This document shows, one piece after another, positions 26,433-44,498 of a DNA stretch of 64,000 nt (position 1 is its first letter; every line of letters starts with the position of its first letter). Both the position numbers and the translations under genes were made by a program. The stretch covers positions 85,458 through 149,457 of the forward strand of contig JBFWJS010000003.1 in the NCBI GenBank assembly GCA_050253075.1. The letters are read 5' to 3'. Source of the stretch: Deferribacterales bacterium. Its GTDB lineage: Bacteria > Chrysiogenota > Deferribacteres > Deferribacterales > Geovibrionaceae. The notes under the pieces were generated by a model. That model ran no database searches. It was not told the DNA's origin and saw only the letters and a program-made list of their open reading frames with translations.

Positions 26433-28808
26433 ATGTCGAAGCGTGTTTTATTGTTTTTAATGGCTGTGCTTGCCTGCACCGTACTTGTTGCAGGTTGCGG
26501 CGGCGATGATGGCTCTGACGGCACTAGCGTTAGTGTTGATGACGTCATCAACAGCCCAGAATTCCAGGATGCTATCGGTGATAACACTGATGCTCTCTCT
26601 AAAGTAGCTAGCGAGTCTTGTGCAGTTTGTCACAACGACAGCGCTGAATTCAACGGTACATCTCACCAGAATAAGTATGATACAGTTGATACTGATGCTT
26701 ATGCTCTTACAGTAACTAACGTTGCACTTGGAGCAGGTAGTGATGCTGATCACGCAGTTGTTACTGTTGACTTCACATTTACAGACGGCGGTAACCCTGT
26801 AGTGCTTGCAGATCTTCCATCTCTTGCATTTGGTGTTCAGAAATACCCTAACGGTTCTGGCTACGGTATAGCTGCAGCTCAGGATACACTTGTTGATAAC
26901 GGTGACGGTTCATTCACATTTACTTCTACTGACGCAACAGCGATCCCTTCTGCTACAGCTGACTACTTCGTATATGCAAGCGCAACAGCTAACGAAGTTG
27001 TTATGGCAGATCAGCCTGCAGCAGCTCAGTTCCACTTCTACGAGACTATCGTAACAGGTGGTAAAGGTGCAGGTACTCTTGATGTCGGCGTTTACTCTTC
27101 AACAGCTAGCGCAAGCGGTTGTGTAAGATGTCACGGCGATGCAAACGGAAACTATAAGAAACATGGATATATAGAAGCAGCAGCTGTAGATAGCAACGAC
27201 TTCGTACTTTGCTACAAGTGTCACTACCTTCCAACTGCTGGCACAAACGGCGGTCACCAATCATGGCAGCTGCTTGTTGACAATCCTCAGAAATATGCTG
27301 AGTATGCACTCTTAGCTGAAGCAGCAGGTGATGATGTAGAAGATCACATGACAGCTGCTGAGCTTACAAAGTATGCTTACAACAAAACTCTTATGAATGA
27401 TGTTCACATGTCTCACGCTAAAGAATTTGCTTACCCACAGAGTATGGCAAACTGTGCTACATGTCACACAACTCCAGCTCAGCGTACAGCTGTTCTCGAC
27501 ATGGCTAACTTCACATATGCTACATGTATCAGCTGTCACCCGCAAAACGGTGGTACAGATACAGCTAATGCTGACGGCGATTTCGCAGTTGACACAACAG
27601 AGTGGTCTCTTCAGGGACTTGCAGATGCTTCTGCTTACCCACACGGCGACCTTTCAGCAATTGCTAGCTGTGCAGGTCAGTGTCACGGCGCTACAGCACC
27701 TTCATTCTCTACAATCCACAACGGTGGCTTCGATAAAGCTATCTACACATCTGCAGGCGTTAAATACGCTGACGACGTTGTAGTAACAATCGATTCTGCT
27801 TCTGTTGACGGAACAAACCTTACAATCAACTTCAGCGCTGCAAGTACTGTAACAGGTCTTGAGGCTGATATCGTTCCTAGTGTTTATGTAGCTGGTTACG
27901 GTTACGATACAAAAGATTTTATCGTAAGCAACCACACAAGAGATGCTGATAGAAACTACCTCGGCGAATACACATTCGGCGGAACAAGCCCATACTTCTC
28001 TAATGCTACACAAACTGGTGCTACATGGTCTGTTGTTTACGACCTTACAGCACTTGACGGTGACGGATACATTACAGATGGCGTAGTTAGAAACCTTGAA
28101 ATAGCTATCGCTCCTGCTCTTACAGTTGACGGCGTGTCAGTTGGTATGAATGCTCCATCTAAGACATTCAGCCTTACAACAGGTGCATTCGTTGACGACT
28201 ACTATCAGGGTGCAAACGCTATCGTTAGCGAAGCAAACGGCTGTAACACATGTCACGATCAGCTTGCTACAACATTCCACTCTCCTAACAGAGGCGGAAA
28301 CATCGTAGTATGTCGTATGTGTCACGTAGTTGGTAGCGGCGGTTCTCACCTTGAGATGCAGTCTCGTTCTATCGACTCTTATGTACACGCTACACACACA
28401 TTCCAGCCATATGATACTGATGATGTTGACTTCACAGACCCAGTAGAAGCTGTTCGTTACGAGCACCACGTTGAGTCTACATACCCAATGTTCACAACTA
28501 CTAACTGTGAGTCTTGTCACACATCCGGCACATATGCAATGCCTGACGAGTCTAAGTCTCTTCCAGGCAGACTTTCTGCTGCTTACGAAGTAGGCGTTGA
28601 CAGAAGCATCGGTGCAGTTCCTGCTTATGTAACAGGAGCAGTATCTCGCGCTTGTGGTTCTTGTCACAGAGCTGAGATGATCAACGAAGATGAAGCCGGT
28701 GAGCTCTCTGCATTCAATGCACACGCAGCTACATTCGGTTACATGGTTGAAGATGACGGTACAGTACTTGCTGACGTTATCGAAAAGATCATGACAGTCT
28801 ACAAATAA
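26433..28808 (+). CDS. Decaheme c-type cytochrome lipoprotein, OmcA/MtrC-like architecture
   Basis: AAGGAGG RBS; lipobox VAGC-GGDDGSDG; 9 CXXCH + 1 CX3CH; two beta-rich inter-heme domains. Confidence 0.85.
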   Translation: MSKRVLLFLMAVLACTVLVAGCGGDDGSDGTSVSVDDVINSPEFQDAIGDNTDALSKVASESCAVCHNDSAEFNGTSHQNKYDTVDTDAYALTVTNVALGAGSDADHAVVTVDFTFTDGGNPVVLADLPSLAFGVQKYPNGSGYGIAAAQDTLVDNGDGSFTFTSTDATAIPSATADYFVYASATANEVVMADQPAAAQFHFYETIVTGGKGAGTLDVGVYSSTASASGCVRCHGDANGNYKKHGYIEAAAVDSNDFVLCYKCHYLPTAGTNGGHQSWQLLVDNPQKYAEYALLAEAAGDDVEDHMTAAELTKYAYNKTLMNDVHMSHAKEFAYPQSMANCATCHTTPAQRTAVLDMANFTYATCISCHPQNGGTDTANADGDFAVDTTEWSLQGLADASAYPHGDLSAIASCAGQCHGATAPSFSTIHNGGFDKAIYTSAGVKYADDVVVTIDSASVDGTNLTINFSAASTVTGLEADIVPSVYVAGYGYDTKDFIVSNHTRDADRNYLGEYTFGGTSPYFSNATQTGATWSVVYDLTALDGDGYITDGVVRNLEIAIAPALTVDGVSVGMNAPSKTFSLTTGAFVDDYYQGANAIVSEANGCNTCHDQLATTFHSPNRGGNIVVCRMCHVVGSGGSHLEMQSRSIDSYVHATHTFQPYDTDDVDFTDPVEAVRYEHHVESTYPMFTTTNCESCHTSGTYAMPDESKSLPGRLSAAYEVGVDRSIGAVPAYVTGAVSRACGSCHRAEMINEDEAGELSAFNAHAATFGYMVEDDGTVLADVIEKIMTVYK

Positions 28809-28828
28809 CGTTTAGACTTTAAATAGAG

Positions 28829-28858
28829 AAAGGCGTCCTTCGGGACGCCTTTTTTTTT
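28829..28858 (+). terminator. Strong intrinsic terminator
   Basis: AAAGGCGTCC-TTCG-GGACGCCTTT plus long T run. Confidence 0.92.
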
Positions 28859-29056
28859 GTGTACTTGTAAAATAAAAATATGCGATATGTTAGGTATTTA
28901 AATTAATTGATTAATTTATGATAAAAAGACTAATCATATCTGTTGATGAACGTTTGTTTAGTTTGAAGGCAATATGCTCATAATAATCTATGAATATGCG
29001 AATAAATGAATCCTTAAAAAGTAAGATATAATAAGGGTTTCAAAGGTTTTCTTGTG

Positions 29057-29085
29057 TTGACATGGTGTAGAACTTGCTTTAATCT
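29057..29085 (+). promoter_or_regulatory. Probable sigma-70 promoter of the cytochrome operon
   Basis: TTGACA-17-TAATCT. Confidence 0.5.
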
Positions 29086-29144
29086 ATTATAACGAATGAA
29101 CTAAAGCATTTATTGTTAACTTTTTATTTTATTTGGAGCTGATG

Positions 29145-30206
29145 ATGAGAATATTTACTATCACGTTAATCGCGGTCTTCAGCATCTTTTTTAGTTTTGG
29201 TGTGTCAAATGCATCTTCGTCCGGTATCACTACCGATGATGAAAACTGCATGATGTGTCACAAGTATCCGGGCCTCACAAGGGTCAATGATGAAGGATAC
29301 CTCAGACTCTTTTACGTAGACTCTGAGAAGTATGACCACTCTGTACACACAAAGGTCAAATGTTCCGGATGTCATGCCGATATCAAGGAGATCCCTCATA
29401 AAGAGGCTAAAAAAGTTGACTGTACGACTGAGTGCCACATTAAAAATGCCGGATCTGAAAAGCCGTTTTCACACAAGAAAATAGCGTTGGATCTCGAATC
29501 CAGTATCCATAACCCGGAAAACACAAATGTGAGAGCAAAGATCGAAGAAGATTTTCCTACCTGTACCGATTGCCACAATAACCCTACCTACAGATTTATC
29601 GATAATGACGTAGAAGATATCTATGGCGGCAGACACAAGGAGAGAGTTCTTCAGAAATGCGCAGTCTGCCACGACAACGCAACTGATTATGCCTATTTCT
29701 TCAACCACGTTACACACAGAATAAAGGACCTCGCACCGTCTGAAGACGTTGTTAAGACCTGCAGCAAGTGTCATGCGAAAGAAGAGATGGCTCAGAAGCA
29801 TAAGCTGAAAAATGCCGCTGCTACATACCTTGACACTTTCCACGGAAAGGCTGTCGAGTTCGGATTTGAAAATGCTCCGACATGTATCAGCTGTCACGTT
29901 AAGACAGGCGAATCAGCGCATAAGATCATGAGTTATAAAAACCCTCAAAGTGCCACTTTCGAAGCGAACAGGTATCTGGCCTGCAAAGATGCAGACTGCC
30001 ACGCAAACCCTGGGCAGGAGTTTGGTATGATAAGGATGCACACTGTTATCGACAGCAGCCTCTATCCGATAGAGTTCTATGTCGCTCTCGGTTTCACCAT
30101 CCTTACCATCGGAGCTTTCTACCCGCTTCTGATACTGATGATTCTCGAGCTTATCAGAGAGCTCTTCCCGAACGTCAGCTTCAGAAGAAAAAAGAGAAAG
30201 GATTAA
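29145..30206 (+). CDS. Membrane-anchored multiheme cytochrome c (CbcA-like / CbcL c-domain-like)
   Basis: Signal peptide; 6 CXXCH + CX3CH + CX4CH; C-terminal TM helix followed by basic tail. Confidence 0.85.
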   Translation: MRIFTITLIAVFSIFFSFGVSNASSSGITTDDENCMMCHKYPGLTRVNDEGYLRLFYVDSEKYDHSVHTKVKCSGCHADIKEIPHKEAKKVDCTTECHIKNAGSEKPFSHKKIALDLESSIHNPENTNVRAKIEEDFPTCTDCHNNPTYRFIDNDVEDIYGGRHKERVLQKCAVCHDNATDYAYFFNHVTHRIKDLAPSEDVVKTCSKCHAKEEMAQKHKLKNAAATYLDTFHGKAVEFGFENAPTCISCHVKTGESAHKIMSYKNPQSATFEANRYLACKDADCHANPGQEFGMIRMHTVIDSSLYPIEFYVALGFTILTIGAFYPLLILMILELIRELFPNVSFRRKKRKD

Positions 30207-30218: not shown

Positions 30219-31115
30219 ATGATGAGACGATTACCGCTGATCAAAATAAAGAACGGCGAAAGACATTATCTTAAACTGACTCCAAACCAGAAACGTCAGC
30301 ACTTTCTGCTTATGACGACATTCACGCTTCTGGTTTTGACAGGCTTCCCTCTTAAGTTTCATTACTACGACTGGGCAGCCCCTATAATAAACTTCTTTGG
30401 CGGTCTCACCGTTACAAGGATAATACACAGAATTTCAGGCGTACTGATGGTATGGCTGTTCTTCTATCACTGGTGGTACATATTTAAGAACGTATTCAAT
30501 TATTATGTAATACCTGCGAGAAGGACTAATACTTTCTCTTGGAAAGAGCTGATACTGTTCATGTACTATTCTCCTATGTGTCCACGTAAAAAAGACGGTA
30601 AGGACATAGTCGATTTCGTGAAGTTCGCTCTGTTCATCAGCGATGAAAGACCGAAACACGAAAGATTCCACTGGAGAGAGAAGTTTGACTATTGGGCGGT
30701 TTTCTGGGGTATTCCGGTTCTCGGCCTTACAGGTCTTTTCCTCTGGTTCCCCGTGTGGGCGACATCCTTCATGCCCGGATGGGCTGTAAACATCAGCTAC
30801 ATCGCACACTCGGACGAGGCTATGCTTGCTGTCAGTGTTATCTTTATCTGGCACATGTATAACGCTCACGTTAACTATGACAAATTCCCTGCGTCTCCGC
30901 TCTTCATCACAGGCTACCTGCCTGAAGACCTGATGAAGCATGAGTACTATGTGGAGTGGGCCCGTCTCAATCACATCTGTGAGAAAGACCCGACTCTCAT
31001 AGAGGACGTGGATGCTCAGAGAGCAGCACTGTCCATGACAGACGCTGAGAAGCTGGAAGTTGTCAGAGGACAGATCAAGTTCCTGCAGAATGAAGAAAGA
31101 GGAGAAGATCAATGA
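30219..31115 (+). CDS. Integral membrane di-heme cytochrome b (FdnI/CbcB-like quinol oxidoreductase subunit)
   Basis: QH..LVLTGFPLKF, IHRISG, EKFDYWAVFWG, HSDEA..WHMYN heme-ligand His pattern. Confidence 0.88.
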   Translation: MMRRLPLIKIKNGERHYLKLTPNQKRQHFLLMTTFTLLVLTGFPLKFHYYDWAAPIINFFGGLTVTRIIHRISGVLMVWLFFYHWWYIFKNVFNYYVIPARRTNTFSWKELILFMYYSPMCPRKKDGKDIVDFVKFALFISDERPKHERFHWREKFDYWAVFWGIPVLGLTGLFLWFPVWATSFMPGWAVNISYIAHSDEAMLAVSVIFIWHMYNAHVNYDKFPASPLFITGYLPEDLMKHEYYVEWARLNHICEKDPTLIEDVDAQRAALSMTDAEKLEVVRGQIKFLQNEERGEDQ

Positions 31116-31969
31116 GCGGAAGATCATCAGGCATAAGAAAAAAGATTTACTGCATCATCGGTATCGCTATCCTCTTATACTGCGGATACATAGTAGAAAT
31201 ACTCGTGATGCACATCTGGCATAAAGCTCCGCACGCCGAGCACACAGACGCTAACATGTCTGCCGACGATAAGCTCTTTCAGGAGATGCTTTCCGGTGCT
31301 GAAGAGGGCGGTCACGGTGTAGCCAGAAAAGATATAAACGAGATCCACAGGCTGTATGAATTTCATAAAAGCGAGCGCAATGCTGTCCTCGATACACAGA
31401 ACCTCTGTGTTTCATGCCACGGCGACGTGCCTCACGATAAAAAGAAAGAAATTCGTGCCTTCCTTAACATGCACACATTCTTTATGGCTTGTGAAACATG
31501 CCACATAGACAACGGTGATGTTGTGGATACTAAGTACGTCTGGTACAACAAAACAACAGGCGTGAAAAGGGATACATTAGAGCTGGATACATATCTCGCC
31601 GACACACAGTATAAGCTGATCCCTCAGAACCGTACAGGTGAAGAGAAAGAGGTCTACGCTACTGAAAAAATGCAGAAATACGTTGCTCAGTTTAAAGACA
31701 GCGTAGGCGGCATGCTGCCATCTGCAAAGAGCGCCGCTCTTAAAGTTATCCACAGACCTATGTCGGAAGTGAAAGATACGGTACACTGCGAAAACTGTCA
31801 CACAGCGGACAGAAGCAAGGCTTACCTGCCATTCGCAGAGATCGGTTATCCCGAAAGACGTACCGATCAGCTTGTCGGCAACGAGGTAGTAGGTATGATA
31901 GAAAAGTATAAGCAGTTCTATCTGCCTGATTTCTTAGCTCCTAAAGAGGAAGACGAGAGTGAAAAGTAA
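31112..31969 (+). CDS. Membrane-anchored triheme cytochrome c
   Basis: N-terminal TM; CVSCH, CETCH, CENCH. Confidence 0.85.
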   Translation: MSGRSSGIRKKIYCIIGIAILLYCGYIVEILVMHIWHKAPHAEHTDANMSADDKLFQEMLSGAEEGGHGVARKDINEIHRLYEFHKSERNAVLDTQNLCVSCHGDVPHDKKKEIRAFLNMHTFFMACETCHIDNGDVVDTKYVWYNKTTGVKRDTLELDTYLADTQYKLIPQNRTGEEKEVYATEKMQKYVAQFKDSVGGMLPSAKSAALKVIHRPMSEVKDTVHCENCHTADRSKAYLPFAEIGYPERRTDQLVGNEVVGMIEKYKQFYLPDFLAPKEEDESEK

Positions 31970-32846
31970 AATACTGATTGCTGTTCTTATCCTGTGCACT
32001 GCCGCTATGGCCGGTGCACAGGATCTTAGAGCATCGCTTTTATACAAAATAAAGCTCGGCGAACATGCCGCTCCGGCGGATGTTGTCCTTTATGACGACG
32101 GAAGGACGGGCATCTATGATGCATACTCCGGCCGATATACCGTTTATAAAGGGGATGTAAGTGAAGGCGGATTTCAGAGTGAAATGCTGAAGGGCGGAAA
32201 CTGCTTTGTCGCAAACGGAAACTATTTCCTTTACTGCGACAGCGTGAACAGCTCTGTAGACATGATCTCTGCTTCCGGTGAGCTTTATAAATCGTTTAGT
32301 ATTCCGTCAGATATAAAAGGCAAGTACGACCCTACTGATGCCCTTGTGTCTGACGGTTTTCTTTTTACAGCCGACAACGACAACCACAGGGTTGTAAAGG
32401 CTGACCTTGCCACGGGCGAAGTCGCAATGGTACAGGGCGGATACGGCGACAGCAAACTTAAGTTCTGGTATCCGTATGCTCTGTCTATGGACTCTAAGGG
32501 AGTTCTCTATGTGTCTGAGGTGCTCAACACCAGAGTGCAGAAGATCACAAAAGAGCTTAAATTCTATGAATTCTACGGAAGCTGGGGTATCAAACCCGGC
32601 GAATTTTTCAGACCGACAGGTGTGGCCGTCTATAAAGGGGATAATGTCCTTGTAGGCGACGGATACACAGGCGTCATTCAGTATCTCGACAACGAGGGCA
32701 GGTTTACCGGTCTTTTAAAAGACAAGAGCGGAAACAGGCTCAGCCTCGGTTCTGTCACTCATATCAGAGTAAACGGAGACAGGCTCGGCGTCGTGGATGC
32801 GTTTGGCAAAACGGTCTATATATTTGAACTGGAGGAGCTGAAGTGA
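31959..32846 (+). CDS. Exported NHL-repeat beta-propeller protein
   Basis: Signal peptide; ADNDNHRV, FWYPYALSMDSKGVLYVSEVLNTRVQ, PGEFFRPTGVAV repeats. Confidence 0.85.
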   Translation: MKSKILIAVLILCTAAMAGAQDLRASLLYKIKLGEHAAPADVVLYDDGRTGIYDAYSGRYTVYKGDVSEGGFQSEMLKGGNCFVANGNYFLYCDSVNSSVDMISASGELYKSFSIPSDIKGKYDPTDALVSDGFLFTADNDNHRVVKADLATGEVAMVQGGYGDSKLKFWYPYALSMDSKGVLYVSEVLNTRVQKITKELKFYEFYGSWGIKPGEFFRPTGVAVYKGDNVLVGDGYTGVIQYLDNEGRFTGLLKDKSGNRLSLGSVTHIRVNGDRLGVVDAFGKTVYIFELEELK

Positions 32847-35800
32847 AAAAACTGCTAATACTGCTGCCGATGCTCCTTGCCGCTTTTGCGGCTTATTCAG
32901 CTGATGTCACAAAGCTGAATCCCGATTCTTCGAAACAGTGTGCGGTCTGCCACTATGAGTGGATGCCTGAGTTCCTCTTTGACCTGAAAGGTACAGAGCT
33001 TGTGGACTATCAGAGCGAAAAGACCGTCGCTACTGAAAAGATGTGCTTCAGCTGTCACAACGGAACCGTAGGCGACAGCCGTATCAGGATATGGTCCGGA
33101 GATATGCATAAGCTCTCCGACAAGATCCCTGAGCACATGAACATCCCTAAAGAACTTCCTCTCAACGGCAACTCTATCGGATGCCGAACATGTCACTCTG
33201 CCCACTCCACAGGAAACCCTGAGAAAGAGGGCGTTGAAAAAAGCGTGTTCCTCCGCATGGAAAACGAAGACTCTCAGCTCTGTCAGGCATGCCACACAGA
33301 CATGTCAAAGGATAAGGTGCACAGCCATCCTCTGAAAGAGATGAAGAAAGCCGGCGAGATAGAACCTAAACTGAAAAAGATGTTCGGTAAGCTGGGAAGC
33401 AAAGATCAGGTAGTCTGCGAAAGCTGCCATACGCCTCACTCACCGAAAGAAAATAAACTTCTCATAAGCGAGCTGACAGACTCGAAGCTCTGCTCTGTAT
33501 GCCACGAAGATAAGGTAAACCCCGATAACCTCACATATGTTAAAGGCGTGCTGAACCACCCTATCAATGTGATACAGGAAAAACCTGTGGCAGATATTGA
33601 GAAACACGGCGGTAAATACGGCAAAGGGGGCGAAGTTATCTGCCTCACATGCCATGCTCCGCACAACGGTAAAAACAAAGGTCTGCTCATTGAAAACAAT
33701 CAGGACAGCAAGCTCTGCCTGACATGCCATAATGAAAAAAAATCTGTCGTCTCCACAAAGCACGACATGAAGACCGTAAAAGGATACAGAACAAAAGACG
33801 GAAGAACAGCACAGGAAACAGGCACATGCGAAAGCTGCCACGCCCCACACGGATGGGCAGTGAAGCTGCCTAAAGGCGAGGGCGACCTCATCTCTAAAAG
33901 CTGTCTTTCATGTCACGACGACGGCGGTGTGGCTGAGAAGAAGGTTATTTCTTCGAAACTCTTTAACCACCCTGTCGGCAAGTCTATCAAAGACGGTGTC
34001 AAAGCGCCGGAGAACCTTCCGCTTTACGGACGCCTGCTGAACTTCCTTACAGAGTTCAGAACAGACGGTGAAGTGAAGAAGACAGTAACATGCGCAACAT
34101 GCCACGATGTCCACTCCAAAGGACAGAACTTCCTCCGTGCCGAAGCGGAAACAGGCGCACTCTGCATCTCATGTCATAATGAAAAAGAGATGATACAGAA
34201 GACGCTTCACGGCGGACAGAAGCTTGAAAAGAACTGTCTCTCATGCCACAAAGTGCACAACAGCGACAACGAGCGTCTCCTCACTAAGGGCGAGAACGAC
34301 GGATGTCTCACTTGTCACAAAGAGGGCGAGATAGGACAGAAAATGCTCACAGGCGAGCACTCCCACCCGGTTAATATGGCAGTAGACCGTAAGCTGGACG
34401 AGCACTTCAAACTGAGCAAAGATAATAAGATGACATGCGTAAGCTGTCACGACCCTCACTCGAGCACAAAGACTGCCAAGCTGGACAGAGACTTTATCAG
34501 AGGCGGATTCGCAGATAAAGATCAGTTCTGTACTGCATGTCACGAAGGTCAGAAAGAGATCATCGGAAGCGACCACGACGTACGAAAGAAAGACAGCGAA
34601 GAGGTTTGCTCTCAGTGTCACGCCGTGCATAAGGCCAAAACCGATAAGAATATAATGGCTCTGGAATACGCCTACAGCACCGAAGATGACAGCTGTAAGG
34701 TCTGCCACTCTGAAAAGGGTTCCGCAGATAAAAAGATAGTCATGGACGGACACAAACTCGGCAAGACAGAGATGCATGAGAAATACGGCAAGTTCCTCAC
34801 TGAAAAGGACGGGGACTACTATATCTATTGTTCAAGCTGTCACACCGTGCACAACAACGGACCGAAAAAGGGCGAGGAAGGAACCATCCGGAACAGCTTC
34901 CTGAATAAGAAACTGTCCGAAAACGGCAGCTTCTGTGCAGGATGCCACGAAGATAAGAAAAGTTTTGCGGCTTCAAAGCACAACGTAAACAGCTTTGAAA
35001 ACCACTCAGATAAAACAGCGAAAGCTAAAGCCGAAGGGGACACATGCGGATCCTGCCACATTGTCCACAACAGCGGCGAATATCTCTTTGCTAAAGAGTA
35101 CGGCGGTAATTTCGAAAAGATGTGCGAGAGCTGTCACGCCAAGGGCGAAGCAGCATCCAAAACAGCTATCGAAACAAGCCATAAGATGAACATGAAGCCT
35201 GAGAAGGTTGACGGACTCTTCCTGCAGGGGGGCAATGTTGTATGTGCCACATGTCACGAGCCTCATGCCGAAAACAAAGGCATGCTACGTGATCTGGGCG
35301 ATAAAAACATATGCGCCACATGTCACAAAGACAAAGATATGGTAGAGCTCTCCGAGCACAACATTGCGAAACTTGACTACATCGAAGGTGAAATAAAAGC
35401 CACAGCAGGCGTGAATCCATGCTATACATGTCATAAGCCTCACAACTTCCACAAAGGAAACAAATACATGTGGGCGTTTGAGATGAAAGATAAGCGCGGA
35501 TTCGCATACGACGTATGCTCTTCTTGCCATGCCGATAAAGGTATAGGGTATAAGAAGGTGCCTGATGCTCAGGTTCATGCCCGTATATTTAAGATTTTCC
35601 CTTACAAAGAGCGCTTTAAAGAGTATCTCTTTGACGAAAAGGGCGAAGTATCCACAGACGGAGCTATCACATGCCAGACATGTCATGATCCGCACGTGTG
35701 GGTGAAAGGCATGACAAAGCCTGAGATAAATGTCGAAGGCGATACTAAGAACAGCTTCCTGAAACTCTCCGTAAAAGACGACTTCTGTAAAGTCTGTCAC

Positions 35801-35950: not shown

Positions 35951-36810
35951 GAAAGCTCCTTATAACATGCTTTGCGGCAATGCTTTTCGCTCCGCAGGTA
36001 CAGGCAGAGATGAAGCCTGTATTCGGCAGCGGGCTGAAGATGGACAAGGACTATGGCGTGCTTTATTTCAACAGTGAAAAGAGGCGTGATGTCAGCATAA
36101 TGTCGTCATTCATCAGTGACTGCACAGACCTGAAAGTTGCGTGTATATGCGCAGATGTCTCAGGCAGAAGCACAGACCAGCTGAAAGAAGCATTTCATAA
36201 TGCAGAAGGCAACGACTGCCTTTACAGTACAGATAAATCCGATGAATCGCCCCGTGCAGAGTTTTTTGCAGGCGGCGAATCGGTCGGTAACATAAACGAA
36301 CACGAGAACTTTACTCTGCTGCTCCCCGCATACCTCAAATATGTGGCGAAAGAGATAGATGATAAAGGTCTCGAAGAACAGCTCAAAGCTGCCGCAGGCG
36401 CCGAGGCTTATAAGAAGATCGTCCCCAGGATGAACTTCGTGCTGATGCTTGCGAAAAAGGGTGAGCGTGATGCCGCCCTGCACGAGCTGGACGGTATAGA
36501 TACCGCTATGTTGGATGATAAGGGTATGCTCCTTCTGGGGCAGACGTATCTTCGTCTGAAAGCACCGGAAAAAGCCCACGATATCCTGAAAGACTGCAAT
36601 GATAATGAATGCCGCTTTTATTCTGCTGTTGCACTTCACCTTTCAGGGAGAAACGAAGAGGCTGTTAACGCTTTCATATCTTTGAAAAAAGTATATAATG
36701 ACGACGATAAGATCAATTTTTATTTAAAAGCTGCCTATAAAGCTTTAGGGGACGATGTTGATGCGGATAAGATTAAACTGCCTGACAACTATAATATTAA
36801 TTCTGATTAG
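35947..36810 (+). CDS. Exported protein with C-terminal TPR-like repeats
   Basis: Signal peptide ending VQA; LLGQTYLRL..A, FYSAVALH..G..EEA, FYLKAAYKALG. Confidence 0.65.
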   Translation: MRKLLITCFAAMLFAPQVQAEMKPVFGSGLKMDKDYGVLYFNSEKRRDVSIMSSFISDCTDLKVACICADVSGRSTDQLKEAFHNAEGNDCLYSTDKSDESPRAEFFAGGESVGNINEHENFTLLLPAYLKYVAKEIDDKGLEEQLKAAAGAEAYKKIVPRMNFVLMLAKKGERDAALHELDGIDTAMLDDKGMLLLGQTYLRLKAPEKAHDILKDCNDNECRFYSAVALHLSGRNEEAVNAFISLKKVYNDDDKINFYLKAAYKALGDDVDADKIKLPDNYNINSD

Positions 36811-37741: not shown

Positions 37742-37758
37742 GACCAGAGGTTTATTAT

Positions 37759-39936
37759 ATGAAGTTTATAAGATTTCTGCTTTTGGCAGCATTTGTTCTG
37801 TCACTTACAGCTTGTGTCGGTGGCGGTTCTAAGAAAAGCTCCGTTAATGACGACACACGAGTCCTTTCCACTGTGAAAGTCGATGATGAAGGCAAGCTCA
37901 GCTATGTCGGCAGCGGAGACTTAGAAGGATTTGAGCTAAACATAGATGACCCTGCCCTTGCGGGGAGAACAATATATATAGAAAAAAGTGCAGCCGCCTA
38001 TGTAACAGGCGGTTATGTTGCGGTTTCAGATAAATATTCTGTACGCCTTACAGATGCTGAAACATCTGTGGATACATATTACGAAGGCGGAGTGACTGTT
38101 CCTTACAGCGCATCAATGCTGGCTGCCGAGGGCGGTACGGCTGCTGATGTGTCTGTCTGCTCGATGATCAATGGTGTTGTGGTAGCATCTGCCACTACAG
38201 CGGGCTCGGGAGCATATGTGACATCAGGGATAGACTTCCCTGTGAGCTTCTTCGCAGGATACAGAAAGGTCGTAGAGTTCAACACCTCGGGTGTTATACA
38301 GTCCAAAGGTCTAAGCTATGCATCTGCCGATGCTGCGGGTGACTATCTCCAGGACCCTGCGGGGACACTTCATCCTGATGTTTTAAGAGGTCTCTTCCAC
38401 ATTCAGCCGGGTGAGAAAATTCTCCTCGGTATAAACGAAGCAGCCTACGGCGACACTGTTGCGGATGTTCAGTGGAGCATAACATCAAAGCCGGCCGGTT
38501 CTACAGCTGCACTGACTGCTGACGGCGACGACACAATGCTGATACCTGATGTGGTCGGAACATACATCGTACAGGCAGAGATACTCGGCGGAAACGGACA
38601 GACAACGGAAGAATCAGCAAACATAGAGGCGCAGGCATACTCCTATAATGCGGCATTAGGTGACGCATACTGCTATTTTCAGTGCCATACGGGTACTTTC
38701 AGCCCTTCTACAAAAGATCAATACGGCAGAACACTCTTCAGAGATATAGTTTCAATGTGGCAGGGCACAGCCCACTCCACAACATTTAACAGAGTCTCAG
38801 GCTCTGTTGATTCCGCATGCTTTAAATGCCACACCACAGGCTTCCTCTATGCCGACAGAGACAACAACGGCACGGATGAATACAGTATAGCAGACGGCTA
38901 CGACGATACTATCGGAGCGGCAAACTGGGCAACACCCGCTGTGGGCGATGCACATCTCAGAAACGTAACATGCGAAGCATGCCACGGCCCCACCTCTACA
39001 GGTGCTGATATGATAGCGAAACACTACAGCAACACATCGCTCTCCTCCGACACATGCCTTGCGTGTCATGATCACGGCAATATAGGTGGCGGACACTTCT
39101 TCGAATATTCCGATGCCCATGATAAAGCATTCACACTTGCCGACGGCACTGTCGCATCAACTTCAGCGTGTGCAAAATGCCACACGGGCGAAGGTATGAT
39201 GGGACGCATCTTCGGCGTGAACATAAATACTGCAAACAGAACAGACGTAACAGGCGTTACATGTAATGTATGCCACGACCCGCACGGTGAAGGGGGCAAT
39301 AATGCTCAGCTTCGTCTCAGCGGAACATACGAGATAGACCTCGCAGGCGGAACACTCACTGCTAATGCAGGAGATGCTCTCATCTGTTATAACTGCCACA
39401 ATGCCGATATGCAGCTCCCTGCTGTGGGCGTTATGCCTCACAACTCTCAGGCAGAGATGTTTCAGGGTGTGGGCGGATACGACTATGGCGAAGATCTGAA
39501 CCGTTATCTCACAGGCCACTCTATCACAGGAGTTACATGCAACGACTGCCATATGAACAGAAACGAAGGCGTTACACACCAGATGCTGATGACAGAAAAT
39601 ACTGCGGACAGACTTATTTTCTGCAGTACACCTGGCTGCCATGTCAGCGGTTTACCTGAATTTACCGACGGTCACTTTGACAGAGGCGGTAAGCTCGCAG
39701 GTATAAGAGTAAAGATAGACCAGCTCGCAGATACTATAAACAGCAAAGCAGGCTTTGCCGCGGGTACAGCAATATCTGCATCATACGCCGCTGCCGACAG
39801 CGATCTTAAGACCGCTTTGGACAGAGCCGCTTATAACTATAATTTTATTAAGAACGACAGAAGCTTCGGTTTTCATAATCCGAGTTATGCAGAGAAACTT
39901 ATTGACCTTTCTCTTGCTGATCTGGCTAACTACTAA
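37759..39936 (+). CDS. Large multiheme cytochrome c lipoprotein (OmcB/c552-like C-terminus)
   Basis: GAGGT RBS before MKFIRF; lipobox LTAC; PKD/Ig-like QWSITSKPAGS; 7 CXXCH + CX3CH + CX4CH; AAYNY..DRSFGFHNPSY. Confidence 0.85.
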   Translation: MKFIRFLLLAAFVLSLTACVGGGSKKSSVNDDTRVLSTVKVDDEGKLSYVGSGDLEGFELNIDDPALAGRTIYIEKSAAAYVTGGYVAVSDKYSVRLTDAETSVDTYYEGGVTVPYSASMLAAEGGTAADVSVCSMINGVVVASATTAGSGAYVTSGIDFPVSFFAGYRKVVEFNTSGVIQSKGLSYASADAAGDYLQDPAGTLHPDVLRGLFHIQPGEKILLGINEAAYGDTVADVQWSITSKPAGSTAALTADGDDTMLIPDVVGTYIVQAEILGGNGQTTEESANIEAQAYSYNAALGDAYCYFQCHTGTFSPSTKDQYGRTLFRDIVSMWQGTAHSTTFNRVSGSVDSACFKCHTTGFLYADRDNNGTDEYSIADGYDDTIGAANWATPAVGDAHLRNVTCEACHGPTSTGADMIAKHYSNTSLSSDTCLACHDHGNIGGGHFFEYSDAHDKAFTLADGTVASTSACAKCHTGEGMMGRIFGVNINTANRTDVTGVTCNVCHDPHGEGGNNAQLRLSGTYEIDLAGGTLTANAGDALICYNCHNADMQLPAVGVMPHNSQAEMFQGVGGYDYGEDLNRYLTGHSITGVTCNDCHMNRNEGVTHQMLMTENTADRLIFCSTPGCHVSGLPEFTDGHFDRGGKLAGIRVKIDQLADTINSKAGFAAGTAISASYAAADSDLKTALDRAAYNYNFIKNDRSFGFHNPSYAEKLIDLSLADLANY

Positions 39937-39941: not shown

Positions 39942-41192
39942 ATGCTGCCTGTGAAAACACTCAGACTGACACTAACAATTATTATCCTATACATGGCGTG
40001 TGCGACAGCCTATGCATTTAATGTGGACGGCATGTTCAGCACGGCATACGAGGTATACAAAGACGAGGGGGAGGACTCCGAAAGCCTTTGGGAAAACTAT
40101 CTCAGTATAGACAACATGAAGCTTATCGACCCTTATGTAGGCTTTAACTTTTACGGAAGATACGCAACAGACACTGAAACAAATGAAAATCATTCAGACA
40201 TCTATACAGCGTATCTGGACTACAGCAGCTTTCAGGACAAAGTTCAGGTGAAGTTAGGACGTTTCAGCTATGTCGGAAACAGGTTCCTCACTCTGGACGG
40301 TGCTGAAGCGACACTGCGCACAGAGAAATATGTCGGTGCAACTGTATTCGCAGGTAAGCCTGCATACTTTGACGCAGACGGCAAACACATAAACGAATCA
40401 TACCGCCATACGGGAGACAGGCTTTACGGAGCAAAGCTCTTCCTTAACGGTGTTGCAGATACTACAGGTTTTATATCTTTCTCCAGAGAGACAGACGACG
40501 GCGATACTCTTCAGGAGATGCTCGGACTAGGTCTAGGACGCAAGTTCATCGTCGGTAAGGCGAAGCTCGGCGTAGACGGCAAGCTCGAGTATGATACTGA
40601 GGAATCAGCGATATACAAAAGCATGATCAGAGGATTCATGAGCTATGAAAAGCTCCTCCTCAGCGCAGATGTGACCAGCTACGACGTTAAAGACGGTTCC
40701 TCATATGAGAACGAACTGGTCATCAGCAACTTCTCCACAGGTAAGGAAGACAGATATGCTTTTAACATTCAGTACGCTGTCACAGAGCATATCAAACCAT
40801 ACCAGAGCACAGTTTTCTCCCGAATCGAGCTCCCCAGCGGAGAGGTTGAAACAGGTGAGATGTATAAGCTCGGCGTTGATTTCGACTGGTTTAAGTCTAT
40901 GGGGCTTTCATCAAACATCGAGGGATACTACTACAACAGTGAGATATCCAACGCAAAGGGCGGAAGCGTTGCACTGGACTGGAACGCTACAAAGACTCTT
41001 AAGCTGAGCTTCGAAGGCGAGGCTCTCAGGCTGGAGAACACCTCTGTTGAAAAAGATGTCTATTCGCTTTATTTCGAAGCTGCATACGATGTCTTAAAAG
41101 ACCTGACCGTCAGCGCATATGCTGAGAACAACAAGGAGACTAGATATCTCCCTGAAAACAGATACGGCATCAAAGCTGCCTACAGCTTTTAG
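39942..41192 (+). CDS. Outer-membrane beta-barrel porin of a porin-cytochrome complex
   Basis: Signal peptide (AYA), alternating amphipathic beta strands rich in Y/G/F, C-terminal YGIKAAYSF; flanked by cytochromes; GTG at 39951 is a possible start. Confidence 0.8.
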   Translation: MLPVKTLRLTLTIIILYMACATAYAFNVDGMFSTAYEVYKDEGEDSESLWENYLSIDNMKLIDPYVGFNFYGRYATDTETNENHSDIYTAYLDYSSFQDKVQVKLGRFSYVGNRFLTLDGAEATLRTEKYVGATVFAGKPAYFDADGKHINESYRHTGDRLYGAKLFLNGVADTTGFISFSRETDDGDTLQEMLGLGLGRKFIVGKAKLGVDGKLEYDTEESAIYKSMIRGFMSYEKLLLSADVTSYDVKDGSSYENELVISNFSTGKEDRYAFNIQYAVTEHIKPYQSTVFSRIELPSGEVETGEMYKLGVDFDWFKSMGLSSNIEGYYYNSEISNAKGGSVALDWNATKTLKLSFEGEALRLENTSVEKDVYSLYFEAAYDVLKDLTVSAYAENNKETRYLPENRYGIKAAYSF

Positions 41193-41214: not shown

Positions 41215-41787
41215 ATGAAAAGGTTTTCATGGTTTTTATTGATAATAATAACTGTTGCGGCGGCAGCCGGATGTGCACAGTTTTACTACCAGTCACCACT
41301 GGCAAAGTTTAATCACGAAAAGCACGTAGACATCCTTTTTCAGCAGAAAAAAGACTGTTTCTACTGCCATCAGCTCCCTGATATCAAGACATTTGTCGAG
41401 CAGGGGGGCGAGCTGAAGATCACCAGCGAGCTGAAAATAGACGGCAAGTGCCACACATGCCACAAAGATCAGGAGACAAAGATAGCGTCTGCTCCGCAGA
41501 ACTGCAGCTCCTGCCACGAAAATATGAAAGTAATGAAGCCTGAAGACCATGTGAACAACTGGACAAACATGCACGCCGTACCGGCTACGCTTGATAAAGC
41601 CAGCTGTAACAGCTGTCATCAGGACTGGTTCTGTGAGAGCTGCCACAGCAAGCAGAACTCAATGGAAAATTTAAGACACTCAAGATCGTTCAAGCTGAAG
41701 CACTCGCTTGAGGCCATGGTTGACCCGGGCTCCTGTGACTCGTGCCACAGGGTGGACTTCTGTATCTCATGTCATAGAAAGGATTAA
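41215..41787 (+). CDS. Small heptaheme cytochrome c lipoprotein (likely porin-inserted subunit)
   Basis: Lipobox AAGC; 7 CXXCH in 190 aa. Confidence 0.88.
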   Translation: MKRFSWFLLIIITVAAAAGCAQFYYQSPLAKFNHEKHVDILFQQKKDCFYCHQLPDIKTFVEQGGELKITSELKIDGKCHTCHKDQETKIASAPQNCSSCHENMKVMKPEDHVNNWTNMHAVPATLDKASCNSCHQDWFCESCHSKQNSMENLRHSRSFKLKHSLEAMVDPGSCDSCHRVDFCISCHRKD

Positions 41788-41790
41788 ACA

Positions 41791-42828
41791 ATGAAGATAA
41801 AGGTTTTACTATTTCTAACACTTATAATTGTTTCATCAATACTCGTCGCTTGCGGCGGAGCTAACGTAGGGGACGGCAGTTCACCCACCAGAGTGACAAA
41901 GTCCACCGCACCGCAGCTTCTCGAGCCTGATGACCATGCAGGCGGTTACGGATGGGAGAATGACAAATGCTTCCTGTGTCACCCTGTGGTACAGCTTCAG
42001 GACATTCACTCATTCAGCGAGCCCCTCGGCGACAGCTTTGCAAAAGTAGGTGACGACGACATCGGTGCATGCCTCTATTGCCACGGCTCAAACGGGCTGT
42101 CAGGCATCACTGCGGATACATACCAGTGTGTCACATGCCACCAGAACAGCAGCATAGTATCAAAAGCGGGTATGTTCAGCGGACACAACATGCACGACCT
42201 CGACCACGACGGACAGATATCAAACTCTGACTGTGTGATCTGTCACTCTTTCTCCGATATGAACGGCGTCATGGATCTTTCCATAGACCTCACCGCAGGC
42301 GGTACTGCATATAATGATACTAATGACTTCTGCCTCGCATGCCACGACGGAAACGGCGCTTTCGGCGTCACTCCTCCTGCGCTTTCTGTTGAGACAGAGG
42401 TGAACAATATATACGCTACATACATGGGAGTAGGCGACACTGCAGCCGCTCAGAAGCTCACTGCGGACATCCACGGTATAAAGGATGGCAACGGACAGAG
42501 CTTTGCGGATTTCCGCGGACTGTACGCTGCGAATACGACTGTGTCATGCCTTAGCTGTCATCAGGTACACTCATCTGACAACGAGTACCTCATCACCGAA
42601 AGCGGTGAGAGTGCCGACCTTGCAGATGAAGCAGCTCTGAACGCACACGTAAGCGTAATAGACAGTGATTTCTCTGAGCTTTGTGCTCTCTGTCATGCTA
42701 CGGCAGGCGGCGGTGATACCGCTAACGGTCTGACCGAAGTGGTGCACACCAGCACATACTCAAGCAACTGTATCTCATGTCACTATCACGGTGCAGGCTA
42801 CGGAGCTTCCACCGCAGACCTTTTCTAA
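41791..42828 (+). CDS. Octaheme cytochrome c lipoprotein
   Basis: Lipobox LVAC; 8 CXXCH; acidic; EF-hand-like loop DLDHDGQISNSD. Confidence 0.88.
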   Translation: MKIKVLLFLTLIIVSSILVACGGANVGDGSSPTRVTKSTAPQLLEPDDHAGGYGWENDKCFLCHPVVQLQDIHSFSEPLGDSFAKVGDDDIGACLYCHGSNGLSGITADTYQCVTCHQNSSIVSKAGMFSGHNMHDLDHDGQISNSDCVICHSFSDMNGVMDLSIDLTAGGTAYNDTNDFCLACHDGNGAFGVTPPALSVETEVNNIYATYMGVGDTAAAQKLTADIHGIKDGNGQSFADFRGLYAANTTVSCLSCHQVHSSDNEYLITESGESADLADEAALNAHVSVIDSDFSELCALCHATAGGGDTANGLTEVVHTSTYSSNCISCHYHGAGYGASTADLF

Positions 42829-42834
42829 GACCAT

Positions 42835-42866
42835 AAAAAAAGGGGAATCCGAAAAGATTCCCCTTT
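42835..42866. terminator. Bidirectional terminator between convergent cytochrome operons
   Basis: AAAGGGGAATC-cgaaaa-GATTCCCCTTT with upstream A run. Confidence 0.85.
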
Positions 42867-42888
42867 ATTGTTTCAAAACATATTCAGC

Positions 42889-43356
42889 TTAAAACGATTG
42901 AACGCCTGAAGTGATCTCTTTGATGAGTTCCTGCATCTTCGGCACATAGTGTCCTTCATAGCCTATTGCGTGGATGATGTTGTTATCCTTATCCAGCACG
43001 ATAGTAGTGGGAAGAGCTATTATGTGGAGCTCTTTCAGATAAGCATGGGGATCGGTCACCGTTACGATGCGTCCTTCGGCTTTCTCTGCTGCCTTTTTAT
43101 CAAGAGCAAGGCACGGAGTCTCTATGCCGGCGCACAGCTCCTGAAAAGCCGTGTACTGCTTCTTACTGAGTCTTTTTTCACTGTCGTATACAAAGAGCAG
43201 CCTGCATGCAGATTTGTCTTTCTGCGGAGCATATCCCTTGTCGTAAGTGAACTTGCCCATATCGAGCTTTGAGCCCTTTTCCGCTCCGCGAAGAGGGAAA
43301 GCGTGCAGTGTCACCACCAGCACGCATATTGATAAAAGTACGGATGTAAACTTCAT
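42889..43356 (-). CDS. Exported thioredoxin-fold (redoxin/TlpA-like) protein lacking CXXC
   Basis: Signal peptide; ALPTTIVLDKDNNI cis-Pro motif; no CXXC after the LLFVY strand. Confidence 0.6.
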   Translation of the reverse strand: MKFTSVLLSICVLVVTLHAFPLRGAEKGSKLDMGKFTYDKGYAPQKDKSACRLLFVYDSEKRLSKKQYTAFQELCAGIETPCLALDKKAAEKAEGRIVTVTDPHAYLKELHIIALPTTIVLDKDNNIIHAIGYEGHYVPKMQELIKEITSGVQSF

Positions 43357-43364
43357 AATTTTAC

Positions 43365-44498
43365 CTATTTGTTATCGACGGGTGCTTCCCTGTCATAGGC
43401 TTTCGGCTTATGGCATCCCACCACACATGAACCGCCGTTCTCTGTCTGTGTGTATTTGATAGGGAGCATCCATCCGCCAGCACCGAAAGGTACTTCGGCT
43501 CTGATATGTAGAGGCTGTGAAGATGCGTGCACTTCATGACAAGACTTACAGCTTCTGCCTTTTTTATCCATAGTTACGTGTCTGTTATGAAGGTTCATGT
43601 CTCCGTTGCGGAAGTTTGTCTCGTCTTTGGATGTCAGCTTCGCTTCGTCGTGACACTCAAAACAGAGAGCATAGAGACCTTCCTGATAGTCGTTATAAAA
43701 GTTTTCTGGGAAATAGTCATAGAGTATCTTCGGATTCGCAGAACCGTGTACGCTGTGACAAGCGGAACATCCGTCCATAGCAACAGGAGCGTGGACGTAT
43801 TCCATATTTTTAACTCTTTCGCCGATGGTGTCATGACACTCATAGCATGTTTCGGATATTTCGTTACCGAGGAACATCTCATAGTCTGAACCGTGCGGGT
43901 TGTGACAGTTGATACAGCTGTCCTGCACAGGTGCGTGCTGATGTTCTGAGTTCACTATTTCCTGAATATCGACGTGACAGCTGAGGCAGAGGTTGTTCAC
44001 CTCGTCCCTGAGTTGATACTGATTGTCTGATGAGTGTGGGCTGTGGCAGTATGCGCACTGTCCCGCAGCAACAGGTCCGTGAACGTATTTTACTTCGGTC
44101 TTGTTTTCGTGGCACATATAGCATGTTTCAGATTCTGTCGCTGTTGCGAGCATGAATTTGTTTTCGCTTCCGTGCGGGTTGTGACAGTCAGTACAGCTGT
44201 CGTCTGCTACAGGCTGGTGCACATTTGACTTATCTTTGAAAGTCTCGTGGCACATATAGCAGAGATTCTCGCCTTCTGATACGGGCGATTCGAAGTTTTT
44301 GTTGTTATCCGGGTCTTCCTGATGATTAACGATGAGGTTATCATCAGCAATATGACAGTCAAGGCAGGAACCTTCTCCCACAGGCGAGTGCATCACAGGC
44401 TGTTCGGATATGTCGGAGTGACAGTCTGAGTAGTTGCATGTGGCAGCAGCGGCTGATAATGATGTCATAAGGATGACAAGAATAAATAAATATCGCAT
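43365..44498 (-). CDS. Periplasmic multiheme cytochrome c (11 CXXCH + CX4CH + CX3CH)
   Basis: GGAG RBS before MRYLFIL; signal peptide; repeated HxPV...CXXCHxPHGS...CXXCH units. Confidence 0.9.
   Translation of the reverse strand: MRYLFILVILMTSLSAAAATCNYSDCHSDISEQPVMHSPVGEGSCLDCHIADDNLIVNHQEDPDNNKNFESPVSEGENLCYMCHETFKDKSNVHQPVADDSCTDCHNPHGSENKFMLATATESETCYMCHENKTEVKYVHGPVAAGQCAYCHSPHSSDNQYQLRDEVNNLCLSCHVDIQEIVNSEHQHAPVQDSCINCHNPHGSDYEMFLGNEISETCYECHDTIGERVKNMEYVHAPVAMDGCSACHSVHGSANPKILYDYFPENFYNDYQEGLYALCFECHDEAKLTSKDETNFRNGDMNLHNRHVTMDKKGRSCKSCHEVHASSQPLHIRAEVPFGAGGWMLPIKYTQTENGGSCVVGCHKPKAYDREAPVDNK

What the first reader, a model, noticed from the sequence alone, without database searches (positions are those of the whole stretch)
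26433..44498. Complete quinol-to-surface extracellular electron transfer locus with about 94 heme-binding motifs
Seen: nine multiheme c cytochromes (10, 8, 3, 28, 8, 9, 7, 8 and 13 motifs; 87 CXXCH + 7 CX3-4CH by hand count), a cytochrome b, a beta-barrel, and NHL, TPR and redoxin accessories. Ten genes (29145-42828) are tightly packed as one apparent operon whose order roughly follows the path inner membrane -> periplasm -> outer membrane. Established: Geobacter uses Cbc quinol oxidases and porin-cytochrome conduits; Shewanella uses MtrCAB/OmcA. Inference: this is a self-contained hybrid conduit with Geobacter-style parts plus an OmcA/MtrC-style terminal protein, in a lineage (probably Deferribacterota) whose metal or electrode respiration machinery is little characterised.
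Basis: partly seen in the sequence, partly recalled or inferred. Interest (0 to 1): 0.85.

Follow-up and report, generated by a model that had tools for sequence, protein, structure and literature searches.

The report
Quinol-to-surface heme wire operon
This gene cluster encodes nine cytochromes with 94 heme-binding motifs, a membrane cytochrome b and an outer-membrane barrel that together likely carry respiratory electrons out of the cell to minerals such as iron oxide; its core parts belong to the known Geobacter-type porin-cytochrome kind.

Summary
In detail: 87 CXXCH + 7 CX3-4CH in nine cytochromes; the operon has 11 genes, not ten. The genome is in the genus of Denitrovibrio acetiphilus. 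The 11-gene order is intact in 9 of 11 family genomes examined and under purifying selection. The barrel models as a ~22-strand outer-membrane barrel. Its orthologue Dacet_0793 and the next cytochrome Dacet_0794 were already listed as a porin-cytochrome (Pcc) pair in 2014. The inner half is orthologous to the published Deferribacter 19-gene cluster. It is CbcL-like in three pieces, not CbcBA. Desulfurivibrio alkaliphilus carries homologues of nine of the 11 genes in one reshuffled operon; its six 5' genes (homologues of I, J, K, B and C+D, plus one extra cytochrome) are induced on ferrihydrite in published RNA-seq. I found no description of one thing: a five-gene cassette (8-heme, cytochrome b, 3-heme, NHL, 18-28-heme) spread over several phyla and joined to different outer-membrane exits. 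Acceptor and direction in this lineage are untested. New variant of a known kind; interest 0.5.

The parts
26266..26293 (+). Perfect sigma-70 consensus (TTGACA-16-TATAAT) upstream of gene A
   Evidence: Best of 28 promoter-like sites, 12/12 match; the number of sites overall is at chance level
26433..28808 (+). A: OmcA/MtrC-like lipoprotein, 10 motifs in a 1+5+4 layout, likely surface-exposed; separate, exchangeable unit
   Evidence: TIGR03507 110 bits, cut-off 209; motif positions and no spare cysteines for a CX8C; neighbours in relatives 22-54% identical
28829..28852 (.). GC hairpin followed by a T run between A and the operon (terminator-like)
28988..29085 (+). Conserved upstream region of the operon: TATGAATATnCGnAT-type site, then TTGACA-17-TAATCT
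   Evidence: Seen by eye in an alignment of 10 upstream regions: site in 8 of 10, TTGACA box in 7 of 10
29145..30206 (+). B: 8-motif (6+2) periplasmic cytochrome c with a C-terminal membrane helix that has no histidine
30219..31115 (+). C: di-heme cytochrome b of FdnI type; His28, 70, 197 and 212 align with FdnI histidines, His84 and His217 are also near-invariant
   Evidence: PF01292 above cut-off; weak alignment to 1KQF_C, E 0.026; conservation
31112..31969 (+). D: 3-motif cytochrome c with an N-terminal membrane helix; fused to C in other phyla
31959..32846 (+). E: exported NHL-repeat beta-propeller
   Evidence: PF01436 above cut-off
32843..35950 (+). F: 28-motif periplasmic cytochrome c, about 37 residues per heme, no lipobox
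   Evidence: lipobox-like motif in 0 of 21 family members
35947..36810 (+). G: TPR-containing exported protein, distant paralogue of the two-domain protein of which M is the first half
36755..37741 (+). H: 8-motif periplasmic cytochrome c, no lipobox
37738..39936 (+). I: 9-motif lipoprotein related to the surface reductase OcwA
   Evidence: PDB 6I5B, E 6e-7 (6I5B is OcwA); lipobox in 12 of 12
39942..41192 (+). J: Pcc-family outer-membrane beta-barrel, about 22 strands, no plug domain, C-terminal Phe
   Evidence: Model pLDDT 87; listed fold matches are outer-membrane barrels; 65% identical to Dacet_0793, listed as a Pcc porin
41215..41787 (+). K: 7-motif small lipoprotein cytochrome of OmaB/ExtC type, probable barrel partner
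   Evidence: Its orthologue follows Dacet_0793 and Dacet_0794 is listed as the Pcc cytochrome; a K-like gene follows the barrel in 20 of 20 distant stretches
41791..42828 (+). L: 8-motif acidic lipoprotein cytochrome, probably outer-surface
42839..42866 (.). Terminator-like hairpin found on both strands between L and M
42889..43356 (-). M: exported protein without CxxC, N-terminal half of a 306-315-residue TPR protein of relatives; 'redoxin fold' is a guess from motifs I recall
43365..44498 (-). N: 13-motif (11+2) periplasmic cytochrome c; lies inside the cluster right after F in Deferribacter-type loci

Best explanation
The 11-gene operon encodes a cytochrome b, seven multiheme c cytochromes and an outer-membrane barrel that likely form one wire carrying electrons from membrane quinol to insoluble acceptors outside the cell, most likely Fe(III) oxides. 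Shown: the genes, motifs, membrane anchors, lipoboxes, barrel model, co-conservation and homology. Inferred steps: (1) C, with membrane helices from B and D, oxidises menaquinol as a three-piece CbcL-like complex. (2) B and D pass electrons to the 28-heme F, which bridges the periplasm, with H and N as further carriers. (3) K sits in barrel J and carries electrons across the outer membrane. (4) Lipoproteins L and I, plus the separately transcribed A, are the surface contacts and the parts that vary or are swapped. (5) E, G and M help assembly.
For: J orthologue Dacet_0793 and Dacet_0794 are catalogued Pcc components. The J profile reaches Geobacter clusters of OmbB-OmaB-OmcB and ExtABCD layout. 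Homologues of I, J, K, B, C+D, E, F and L (29-45% identical) share one operon in Desulfurivibrio alkaliphilus (G322); G368 and G120 show the same order as far as the fetched stretch reaches. In published RNA-seq DA_2136-2141 of that operon rise on ferrihydrite: log2FC 2.4-3.9 against nitrate and 1.4-2.0 against sulfur disproportionation (PMC12545173 Table S3). C-D fusions occur in five loci. dN/dS is 0.01-0.12 for all 11 genes in four family pairs, and I and L are among the fastest-changing genes. Heme-attachment genes are present.
Against: No expression or phenotype data exist for this genome. The F and L homologues are not among the consistently induced genes in Table S3, where an OmcS-like protein is far more strongly induced; one search lists no six-motif protein in this genome. 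Three type strains that carry the operon (G. thiophilus, S. woodruffii, L. acetivorans) have ratios in the range PMC13186404 gives for non-Fe(III)-reducers (I could not see the colour code, and the same paper's text lists L. acetivorans as a reducer). D. desulfuricans keeps the inner cluster and is reported not to reduce iron. K has a lipobox, so the side of the membrane it faces is not known.
Confidence: 0.68

Rival explanations
1. Same wire, but its main acceptor is not a metal oxide: it feeds elemental sulfur, selenium oxyanions, humics or surface lipoprotein reductases.
For: J/K-like genes sit beside a lipoprotein flavo-reductase in G002 and a K-like gene beside a lipoprotein DMSO-reductase-family enzyme in G000. 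Shi 2014 proposed S0 or Se roles for some Pcc carriers. In D. alkaliphilus the operon is 2-5 times higher under S0 disproportionation than under nitrate.
Against: This operon has no catalytic reductase gene, and the homologue is highest on ferrihydrite with all three donors tested.
Confidence: 0.14
2. The wire runs inward: electrons from Fe(II) minerals, steel, cathodes or partner cells reduce menaquinone, which then drives nitrate reduction.
For: C has the FdnI histidine layout; FdnI reduces quinone with periplasmic electrons (established knowledge). PMC10553843 proposes a reversed CbcBA in syntrophic partners. Cassette homologues occur in Desulfobacterales and Nitrospirota genomes.
Against: The homologous operon is lowest under nitrate and highest with ferrihydrite as acceptor. 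Geobacter CbcL serves outward transfer.
Confidence: 0.12
3. The cluster is a remnant of lost metal respiration, as proposed for Deferribacter desulfuricans.
For: The proposal is in print for the orthologous cluster. Three of 15 family genomes lack both C and a true J orthologue, and G015 has lost B-E and part of F.
Against: All 11 frames are open here; dN/dS is 0.01-0.12 in the family and 0.03-0.24 for the inner genes in two Deferribacter pairs.
Confidence: 0.04
4. The cytochromes are a periplasmic electron store and the barrel is an unrelated solute porin.
For: J's fold matches are generic porins and ushers with TM about 0.5 and no close match. Lipoproteins can face the periplasm.
Against: The J family is followed by a K-like cytochrome and a second multiheme gene in 20 of 20 distant stretches, including OmcB-type clusters.
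Confidence: 0.02

Closest known systems
Pcc porin-cytochrome conduits (OmbB-OmaB-OmcB, ExtABCD; Group III Dacet_0793/0794 of Shi et al. 2014, PMC4245776)
   Same: J and K are orthologues of the listed Group III pair; barrel, small cytochrome, larger lipoprotein cytochrome in the same order; the J profile reaches Geobacter porins.
   Different: Embedded in an 11-gene operon with its own quinol-linked module and a 28-heme cytochrome; three candidate surface cytochromes (I, L, A); K has 7 motifs and a lipobox. The text I read of Shi 2014 does not describe the rest of the Dacet cluster; its Figure 1 I could not see.
Desulfurivibrio alkaliphilus DA_2136-2141 operon (Chen et al. 2025, PMC12545173)
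   Same: Homologues of I, J, K, B, C+D, E, F and L in one operon; the authors label C+D 'CbcL-like' and K 'OmaC-like'; induced on ferrihydrite.
   Different: Other gene order (I-J-K-x-B-CD-E-F-L), C and D fused, F has 20 motifs, no G, H or A in that stretch; 29-45% identity.
Deferribacter 19-gene multiheme cluster (DEFDS_0741-60; PMC6896113, PMC13186404)
   Same: B, C, D, E, F (28 motifs), N, the M/G-type protein and H are orthologous, with B-F in the same order.
   Different: No I, J, K or L; instead three small 4-5-motif cytochromes, a ~793-residue probable barrel, a PPIase, an NHL protein and an 11-motif cytochrome, with a two-component system between the halves.
Geobacter CbcL (GSU0274) and CbcBA (GSU0593-94)
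   Same: FdnI-related cytochrome b joined to periplasmic multiheme c domains; B and C match the two halves of fused CbcL-like proteins (24% and 35%).
   Different: Split into three genes; B's helix lacks the histidine present in the fused forms and required in CbcA; an extra triheme arm (D). Not compared with the G. sulfurreducens sequences themselves.
Shewanella OmcA/MtrC and Thermincola OcwA
   Same: A matches the OmcA/MtrC profile over most of its length; I has nine motifs and matches OcwA.
   Different: A has a 1+5+4 layout, no CX8C and scores below cut-off; no MtrB was found in the genome. I adds about 300 N-terminal residues and has His-Asn where the aligned OcwA stretch has His-His.

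Membership tests
Pcc porin-cytochrome conduit | Outer-membrane beta-barrel homologous to Pcc porins | tested here: met
   Barrel model and fold search; 65% to Dacet_0793, listed in the Pcc tables; profile hits beside a protein named OmcB
Pcc porin-cytochrome conduit | Adjacent small multiheme cytochrome of OmaB/ExtC type | tested here: met
   K follows J; Dacet_0794 listed; K profile hits 8-motif and 5-motif Geobacter partners
Pcc porin-cytochrome conduit | Lipoprotein multiheme cytochrome as outer partner | tested here: met
   Lipobox-like motif in L 13 of 13 and I 12 of 12
Pcc porin-cytochrome conduit | Cytochrome inserts in the barrel and passes electrons across the membrane | not testable with these tools
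CbcBA | Cytochrome b with three heme histidines and the fourth in the c-cytochrome's C-terminal helix (bioRxiv 10.1101/2021.04.15.440034) | tested here: not met
   C has four FdnI-aligned histidines itself; no histidine in B's helix in the 21 Deferribacterales rows (one duplicated) or 64 of 64 close distant homologues
CbcBA | Seven-heme CbcA; operon with a sigma-54 regulator | tested here: not met
   B has 8 motifs; a sigma-54-like match in 1 of 10 upstream regions and a conserved TTGACA box instead
CbcL | FdnI-like cytochrome b with a paired-histidine helix, homologous to CbcL-type proteins | tested here: met
   His197/His212 pair; 31-35% to fused CbcL-like proteins of G020, G028, G048; the homologue is labelled CbcL-like in PMC12545173
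CbcL | Single polypeptide with nine c hemes, six membrane helices and a histidine in helix 1 | tested here: not met
   Three genes; no histidine in B's helix
CbcL | D's helix is homologous to CbcL helix 6 | tested here: inconclusive
   Same position in C-D fusions, but no significant profile match
MtrCAB / OmcA | MtrB barrel and MtrA partner | tested here: not met
   PF11854 not found in G000, 99.9% complete
MtrCAB / OmcA | Decaheme 5+5 layout above the TIGR03507 cut-off | tested here: not met
   1+5+4 layout, 110 of 209 bits
MtrCAB / OmcA | Staggered-cross fold | not tested
   The structure job for A did not finish
OcwA-type nonaheme reductase | Nine hemes with His-His pockets over two open hemes | tested here: inconclusive
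   Nine motifs and E 6e-7; only residues 409-448 and 460-680 align, and one His-His is His-Asn
Deferribacter 19-gene cluster | B-C-D-E-F core with 28-heme cytochrome | tested here: met
   39-68% identity for B, C, D, F and 30-38% for E, same order
Deferribacter 19-gene cluster | Distal module with small cytochromes, ~793-residue protein, PPIase and two-component system | tested here: not met
   Replaced by I-J-K-L

The most novel reading that the evidence does not exclude
B-C-D-E-F is an unrecognised, widespread standard module: a three-piece, two-armed CbcL-like quinol oxidoreductase coupled to a fixed 18-28-heme periplasmic wire that replaces small shuttle cytochromes. It plugs into interchangeable outer-membrane exits (a Pcc barrel in the Denitrovibrio family and Desulfurivibrio, a larger barrel module in Deferribacter and many Desulfobulbales) and marks extracellular electron transfer in many uncultured Desulfobacterota, Nitrospirota and Verrucomicrobiota.
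Probability: 0.4. Interest if true: 0.72.

Novelty: new variant of a known kind. Interest (0 to 1): 0.5.

Why it matters
Iron reduction in Deferribacterota is described as mechanistically unresolved (PMC6896113). This locus gives a single-operon candidate path from quinol to cell surface in cultured type strains. It ties three separately published observations (the 2014 Pcc pair, the Deferribacter cluster, the ferrihydrite-induced Desulfurivibrio genes) to one system. The well-conserved cytochrome b and its cassette could be a better genomic marker for extracellular electron transfer than variable surface cytochromes. If the wire also runs inward, it bears on corrosion by nitrate reducers in oil-field settings.

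Tried and rejected
No RNA holder was listed for window 36000-43000. The complex prediction of J with K was not available. The deep profile search of protein representatives never ran. The wide structural search never ran. The model of A did not finish. Sequence searches of solved structures: nothing for A, one irrelevant hit at E 0.53 for the J profile, only short heme-motif hits for F. A word-based profile search for J found only Deferribacterales-level relatives; distant ones came from whole-genome searches. My recollection of a 'Cbc7' complex in sulfate reducers could not be checked: the paper was not held and the word did not occur in the 15 papers listed. I dropped the CbcBA label (histidine test) and an ExtI label for the J paralogues (no Ext model hit the barrels). 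The profile test of D's helix against CbcL-like helix 6 was not significant. F has no internal repeat at E 1e-5. Recent foreign acquisition is not indicated: locus GC 46.8% against genome 46.6%.


Full report
OBSERVATION. Six-frame translation gives nine multiheme ORFs with exactly the counts reported: A 26433 (9+1), B 29145 (6+2), D 31112 (3), F 32843 (28), H 36755 (8), I 37738 (7+2), K 41215 (7), L 41791 (8) and N on the minus strand (11+2). The sum is 87 CXXCH + 7 CX3-4CH. Shuffled proteins give a mean of 0.56 motifs. The locus holds 87 of 165 CXXCH motifs in the genome's 26 multi-motif ORFs. The packed run 29145-42828 has 11 genes (B C D E F G H I J K L), bounded by hairpins at 28829-28852 and 42839-42866. 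A has its own consensus promoter; M and N face the other way.

LINEAGE AND CONSERVATION. The barrel J has orthologues in 12 of 15 same-family genomes and is 65% identical to a protein named Dacet_0793 of Denitrovibrio acetiphilus, with named relatives in Seleniivibrio, Geovibrio and Limisalsivibrio. Of 11 family genomes whose locus I fetched, 9 have B-L complete in the same order (E is short in G001), G014 is cut by a contig end inside B, and G015 has lost B-E and part of F. Three family genomes lack both C and a true J orthologue; G009 is fragmented and was not mapped. dN/dS is 0.01-0.12 for all 11 genes in four family pairs, so this is not a decaying remnant. A lies beside the operon in 4 of the 9 complete loci at 22-54% identity. 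G001 has a 5-motif gene in that slot and G004 a 16-motif lipoprotein after L. OmcA-family genes occur in 8 of 15 family genomes, some in several copies or elsewhere on the chromosome.

OUTER HALF. The model of J (36-sequence alignment) has pLDDT 87, about 22 strands and no plug. The Foldseek matches listed are outer-membrane barrels, none close (TM about 0.5). A J profile hits 41 of 351 genomes sampled from the phylum of G063. In all 20 stretches I mapped, the barrel is followed by a K-like cytochrome of 5-11 motifs and then another multiheme gene. These include Geobacter clusters with 403-404-residue porin, 8-motif partner and a 12-motif protein named OmcB, and one with the ExtABCD layout whose 5-motif gene clusters with a G. 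sulfurreducens lipoprotein cytochrome. The supplementary tables of Shi et al. 2014 (PMC4245776; I read passages, sections 6 and 7 and table rows, not the figures) list Dacet_0793 as a Pcc porin and Dacet_0794 as its cytochrome. So J-K is a member of a known family. I, K and L carry lipoboxes throughout their families; F and H do not. I matches OcwA (6I5B, E 6e-7, passages of PMC6703420). A matches the OmcA/MtrC profile below cut-off, has a 1+5+4 layout, and no MtrB was found in the genome.

INNER HALF. C has four histidines that align with those of FdnI plus two more near-invariant ones. B's C-terminal helix has no histidine, unlike three fused CbcL-like proteins found in the same order. This fails the CbcBA definition in bioRxiv 10.1101/2021.04.15.440034 (passages). 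B and C match the two halves of fused CbcL-like proteins, and C is fused to D in five loci. I infer a three-piece CbcL-like complex with two cytochrome arms; the homology of D's helix to helix 6 is positional only. C orthologues (51-79%) occur in 24 of 62 other genomes of the order. In Deferribacter-type loci the order is [10-11-motif]-B-C-D-E-F-N-M'-H (6 of 7 mapped; one contig ends after F), followed in 5 by a different outer module with a ~793-residue probable barrel. This is the published 19-gene cluster: G025 carries a protein named from D. autotrophicus and has the neighbouring hydrogenase the paper describes (passages of PMC6896113; sections 18-19 and supplement rows of PMC13186404). 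J was not found in those four families (0 of 17 genomes).

WIDER CASSETTE. A genome scan with a C alignment found 181 relatives and kept 80. I set aside the 11 close Deferribacterales loci. In the other 69 (titles mostly Desulfobacterales, Desulfobulbales, Nitrospirota, some Verrucomicrobiota), B-C-D are adjacent in 66, B-C-D-E in 48 and B-C-D-E-F in 44, with flanks limited to 10 kb and many short contigs. F-like proteins mostly have 18, 20 or 24 motifs. No J or K hit lay in those flanks. My searches turned up no paper describing this five-gene cassette as a unit, and passages of a CbcL survey (PMC6295460) name no Deferribacterota. Subscription papers, including the 2010 D. desulfuricans genome paper and the 2022 Limisalsivibrio paper, were not seen and may describe it.

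FUNCTIONAL LINK. Three genomes with the best distant J hits carry I-J-K-x-B-(C+D)-E-F; in G322, named Desulfurivibrio alkaliphilus by exact look-up, L follows and identities to the window are 29-45%. Chen et al. 2025 (PMC12545173; passages and Table S3) report DA_2136-2141 induced in all three ferrihydrite conditions: RPKM 294-517 against 22-57 on nitrate and 90-146 on sulfur. Three of the six I matched by accession, three by order and heme count. Against: the F and L homologues are not in that table, and an OmcS-like protein is the most induced one. Shi 2014 cites this species as unable to reduce Fe(III) oxide, which the 2025 work overturned, so older negative tests in the Denitrovibrio family carry limited weight. 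They are still unfavourable: three carriers fall in the non-reducer range of PMC13186404.

MECHANISM. Most likely: menaquinol to C (b hemes), to B and D, to F (with H and N), to K in barrel J, to L, I and A, to Fe(III) oxide or a similar solid. Every electron-transfer step and the surface location of the lipoproteins are inferred. Rivals are sulfur, selenium or surface-enzyme acceptors (0.14), inward flow (0.12), remnant (0.04) and periplasm-only (0.02). Geobacter work shows that surface lipoproteins of such conduits are often replaced while inner parts are kept (passages of PMC6148476), which fits the pattern here. Other papers consulted in passages only: PMC12133095, PMC10553843, PMC5877670, PMC13591261.

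VERDICT. Real and impressive in size, but built from kinds already known, with orthologues of both halves in print. What is new is the joined view: one operon from quinol to surface, a three-piece CbcL-like core with a very long periplasmic cytochrome, and exchangeable exits. New variant of a known kind; interest 0.5; novel case probability 0.4.

Noticed in passing
G000:C2:652197-655558 (L138:12198-15559, minus strand): A K-like 5+1-motif cytochrome sits directly upstream of a lipoprotein DMSO-reductase-family molybdoenzyme at the contig end; possibly a second conduit feeding a surface reductase, with its barrel beyond the break.
   Followed up: partly
L135:5609-10658 (G002): A fumarate-reductase-like flavoprotein with export and lipoprotein signals and an FeS subunit are followed by a J-like barrel, a 5-motif K-like gene and a 6-motif lipoprotein: a possible outer-surface flavo-reductase on its own conduit.
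   Followed up: partly
L136:7557-12221 (G003): The same-genus genome lacking this operon has another triad: J-like barrel, 10-motif K-like gene and 13-motif lipoprotein.
   Followed up: partly
window 28988-29005 and about 45960-45975; also G000 C1:335459, C2:448037, C7:79930: A TATGAATAT(T/G)CGAATA-type site conserved upstream of the operon recurs at several places in the genome (11 matches to a loose pattern, no chance control); regulator unknown.
   Followed up: partly
L049:6667-8757 (G028) and L050 (G048): Fused CbcL-like proteins in family f7; the G028 protein has an N-terminal rhodanese-like domain and the G048 protein a similar N-terminus.
   Followed up: no
L068, L070, L071, L079, L085 and others: Many Desulfobacterales and Nitrospirota loci carry two or three paralogous B-C-D triads in tandem; in one paralogue class B's helix region does contain a histidine.
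   Followed up: partly
L023 (G015): The operon is cut: B-E and the first 17 motifs of F are missing from the stretch and replaced by unrelated genes, while G-L remain intact.
   Followed up: no
window 46034-47905: Ammonium transporter fused to a GGDEF domain.
   Followed up: no
window 6420-9649: A 721-residue ORF and a convergent probable DNA cytosine methylase (by its N-terminal motif, recalled), absent from the matching place in G002; possibly a restriction-modification insertion.
   Followed up: no
window 19981-25699: RND efflux operon upstream of the locus, also adjacent in G002.
   Followed up: no
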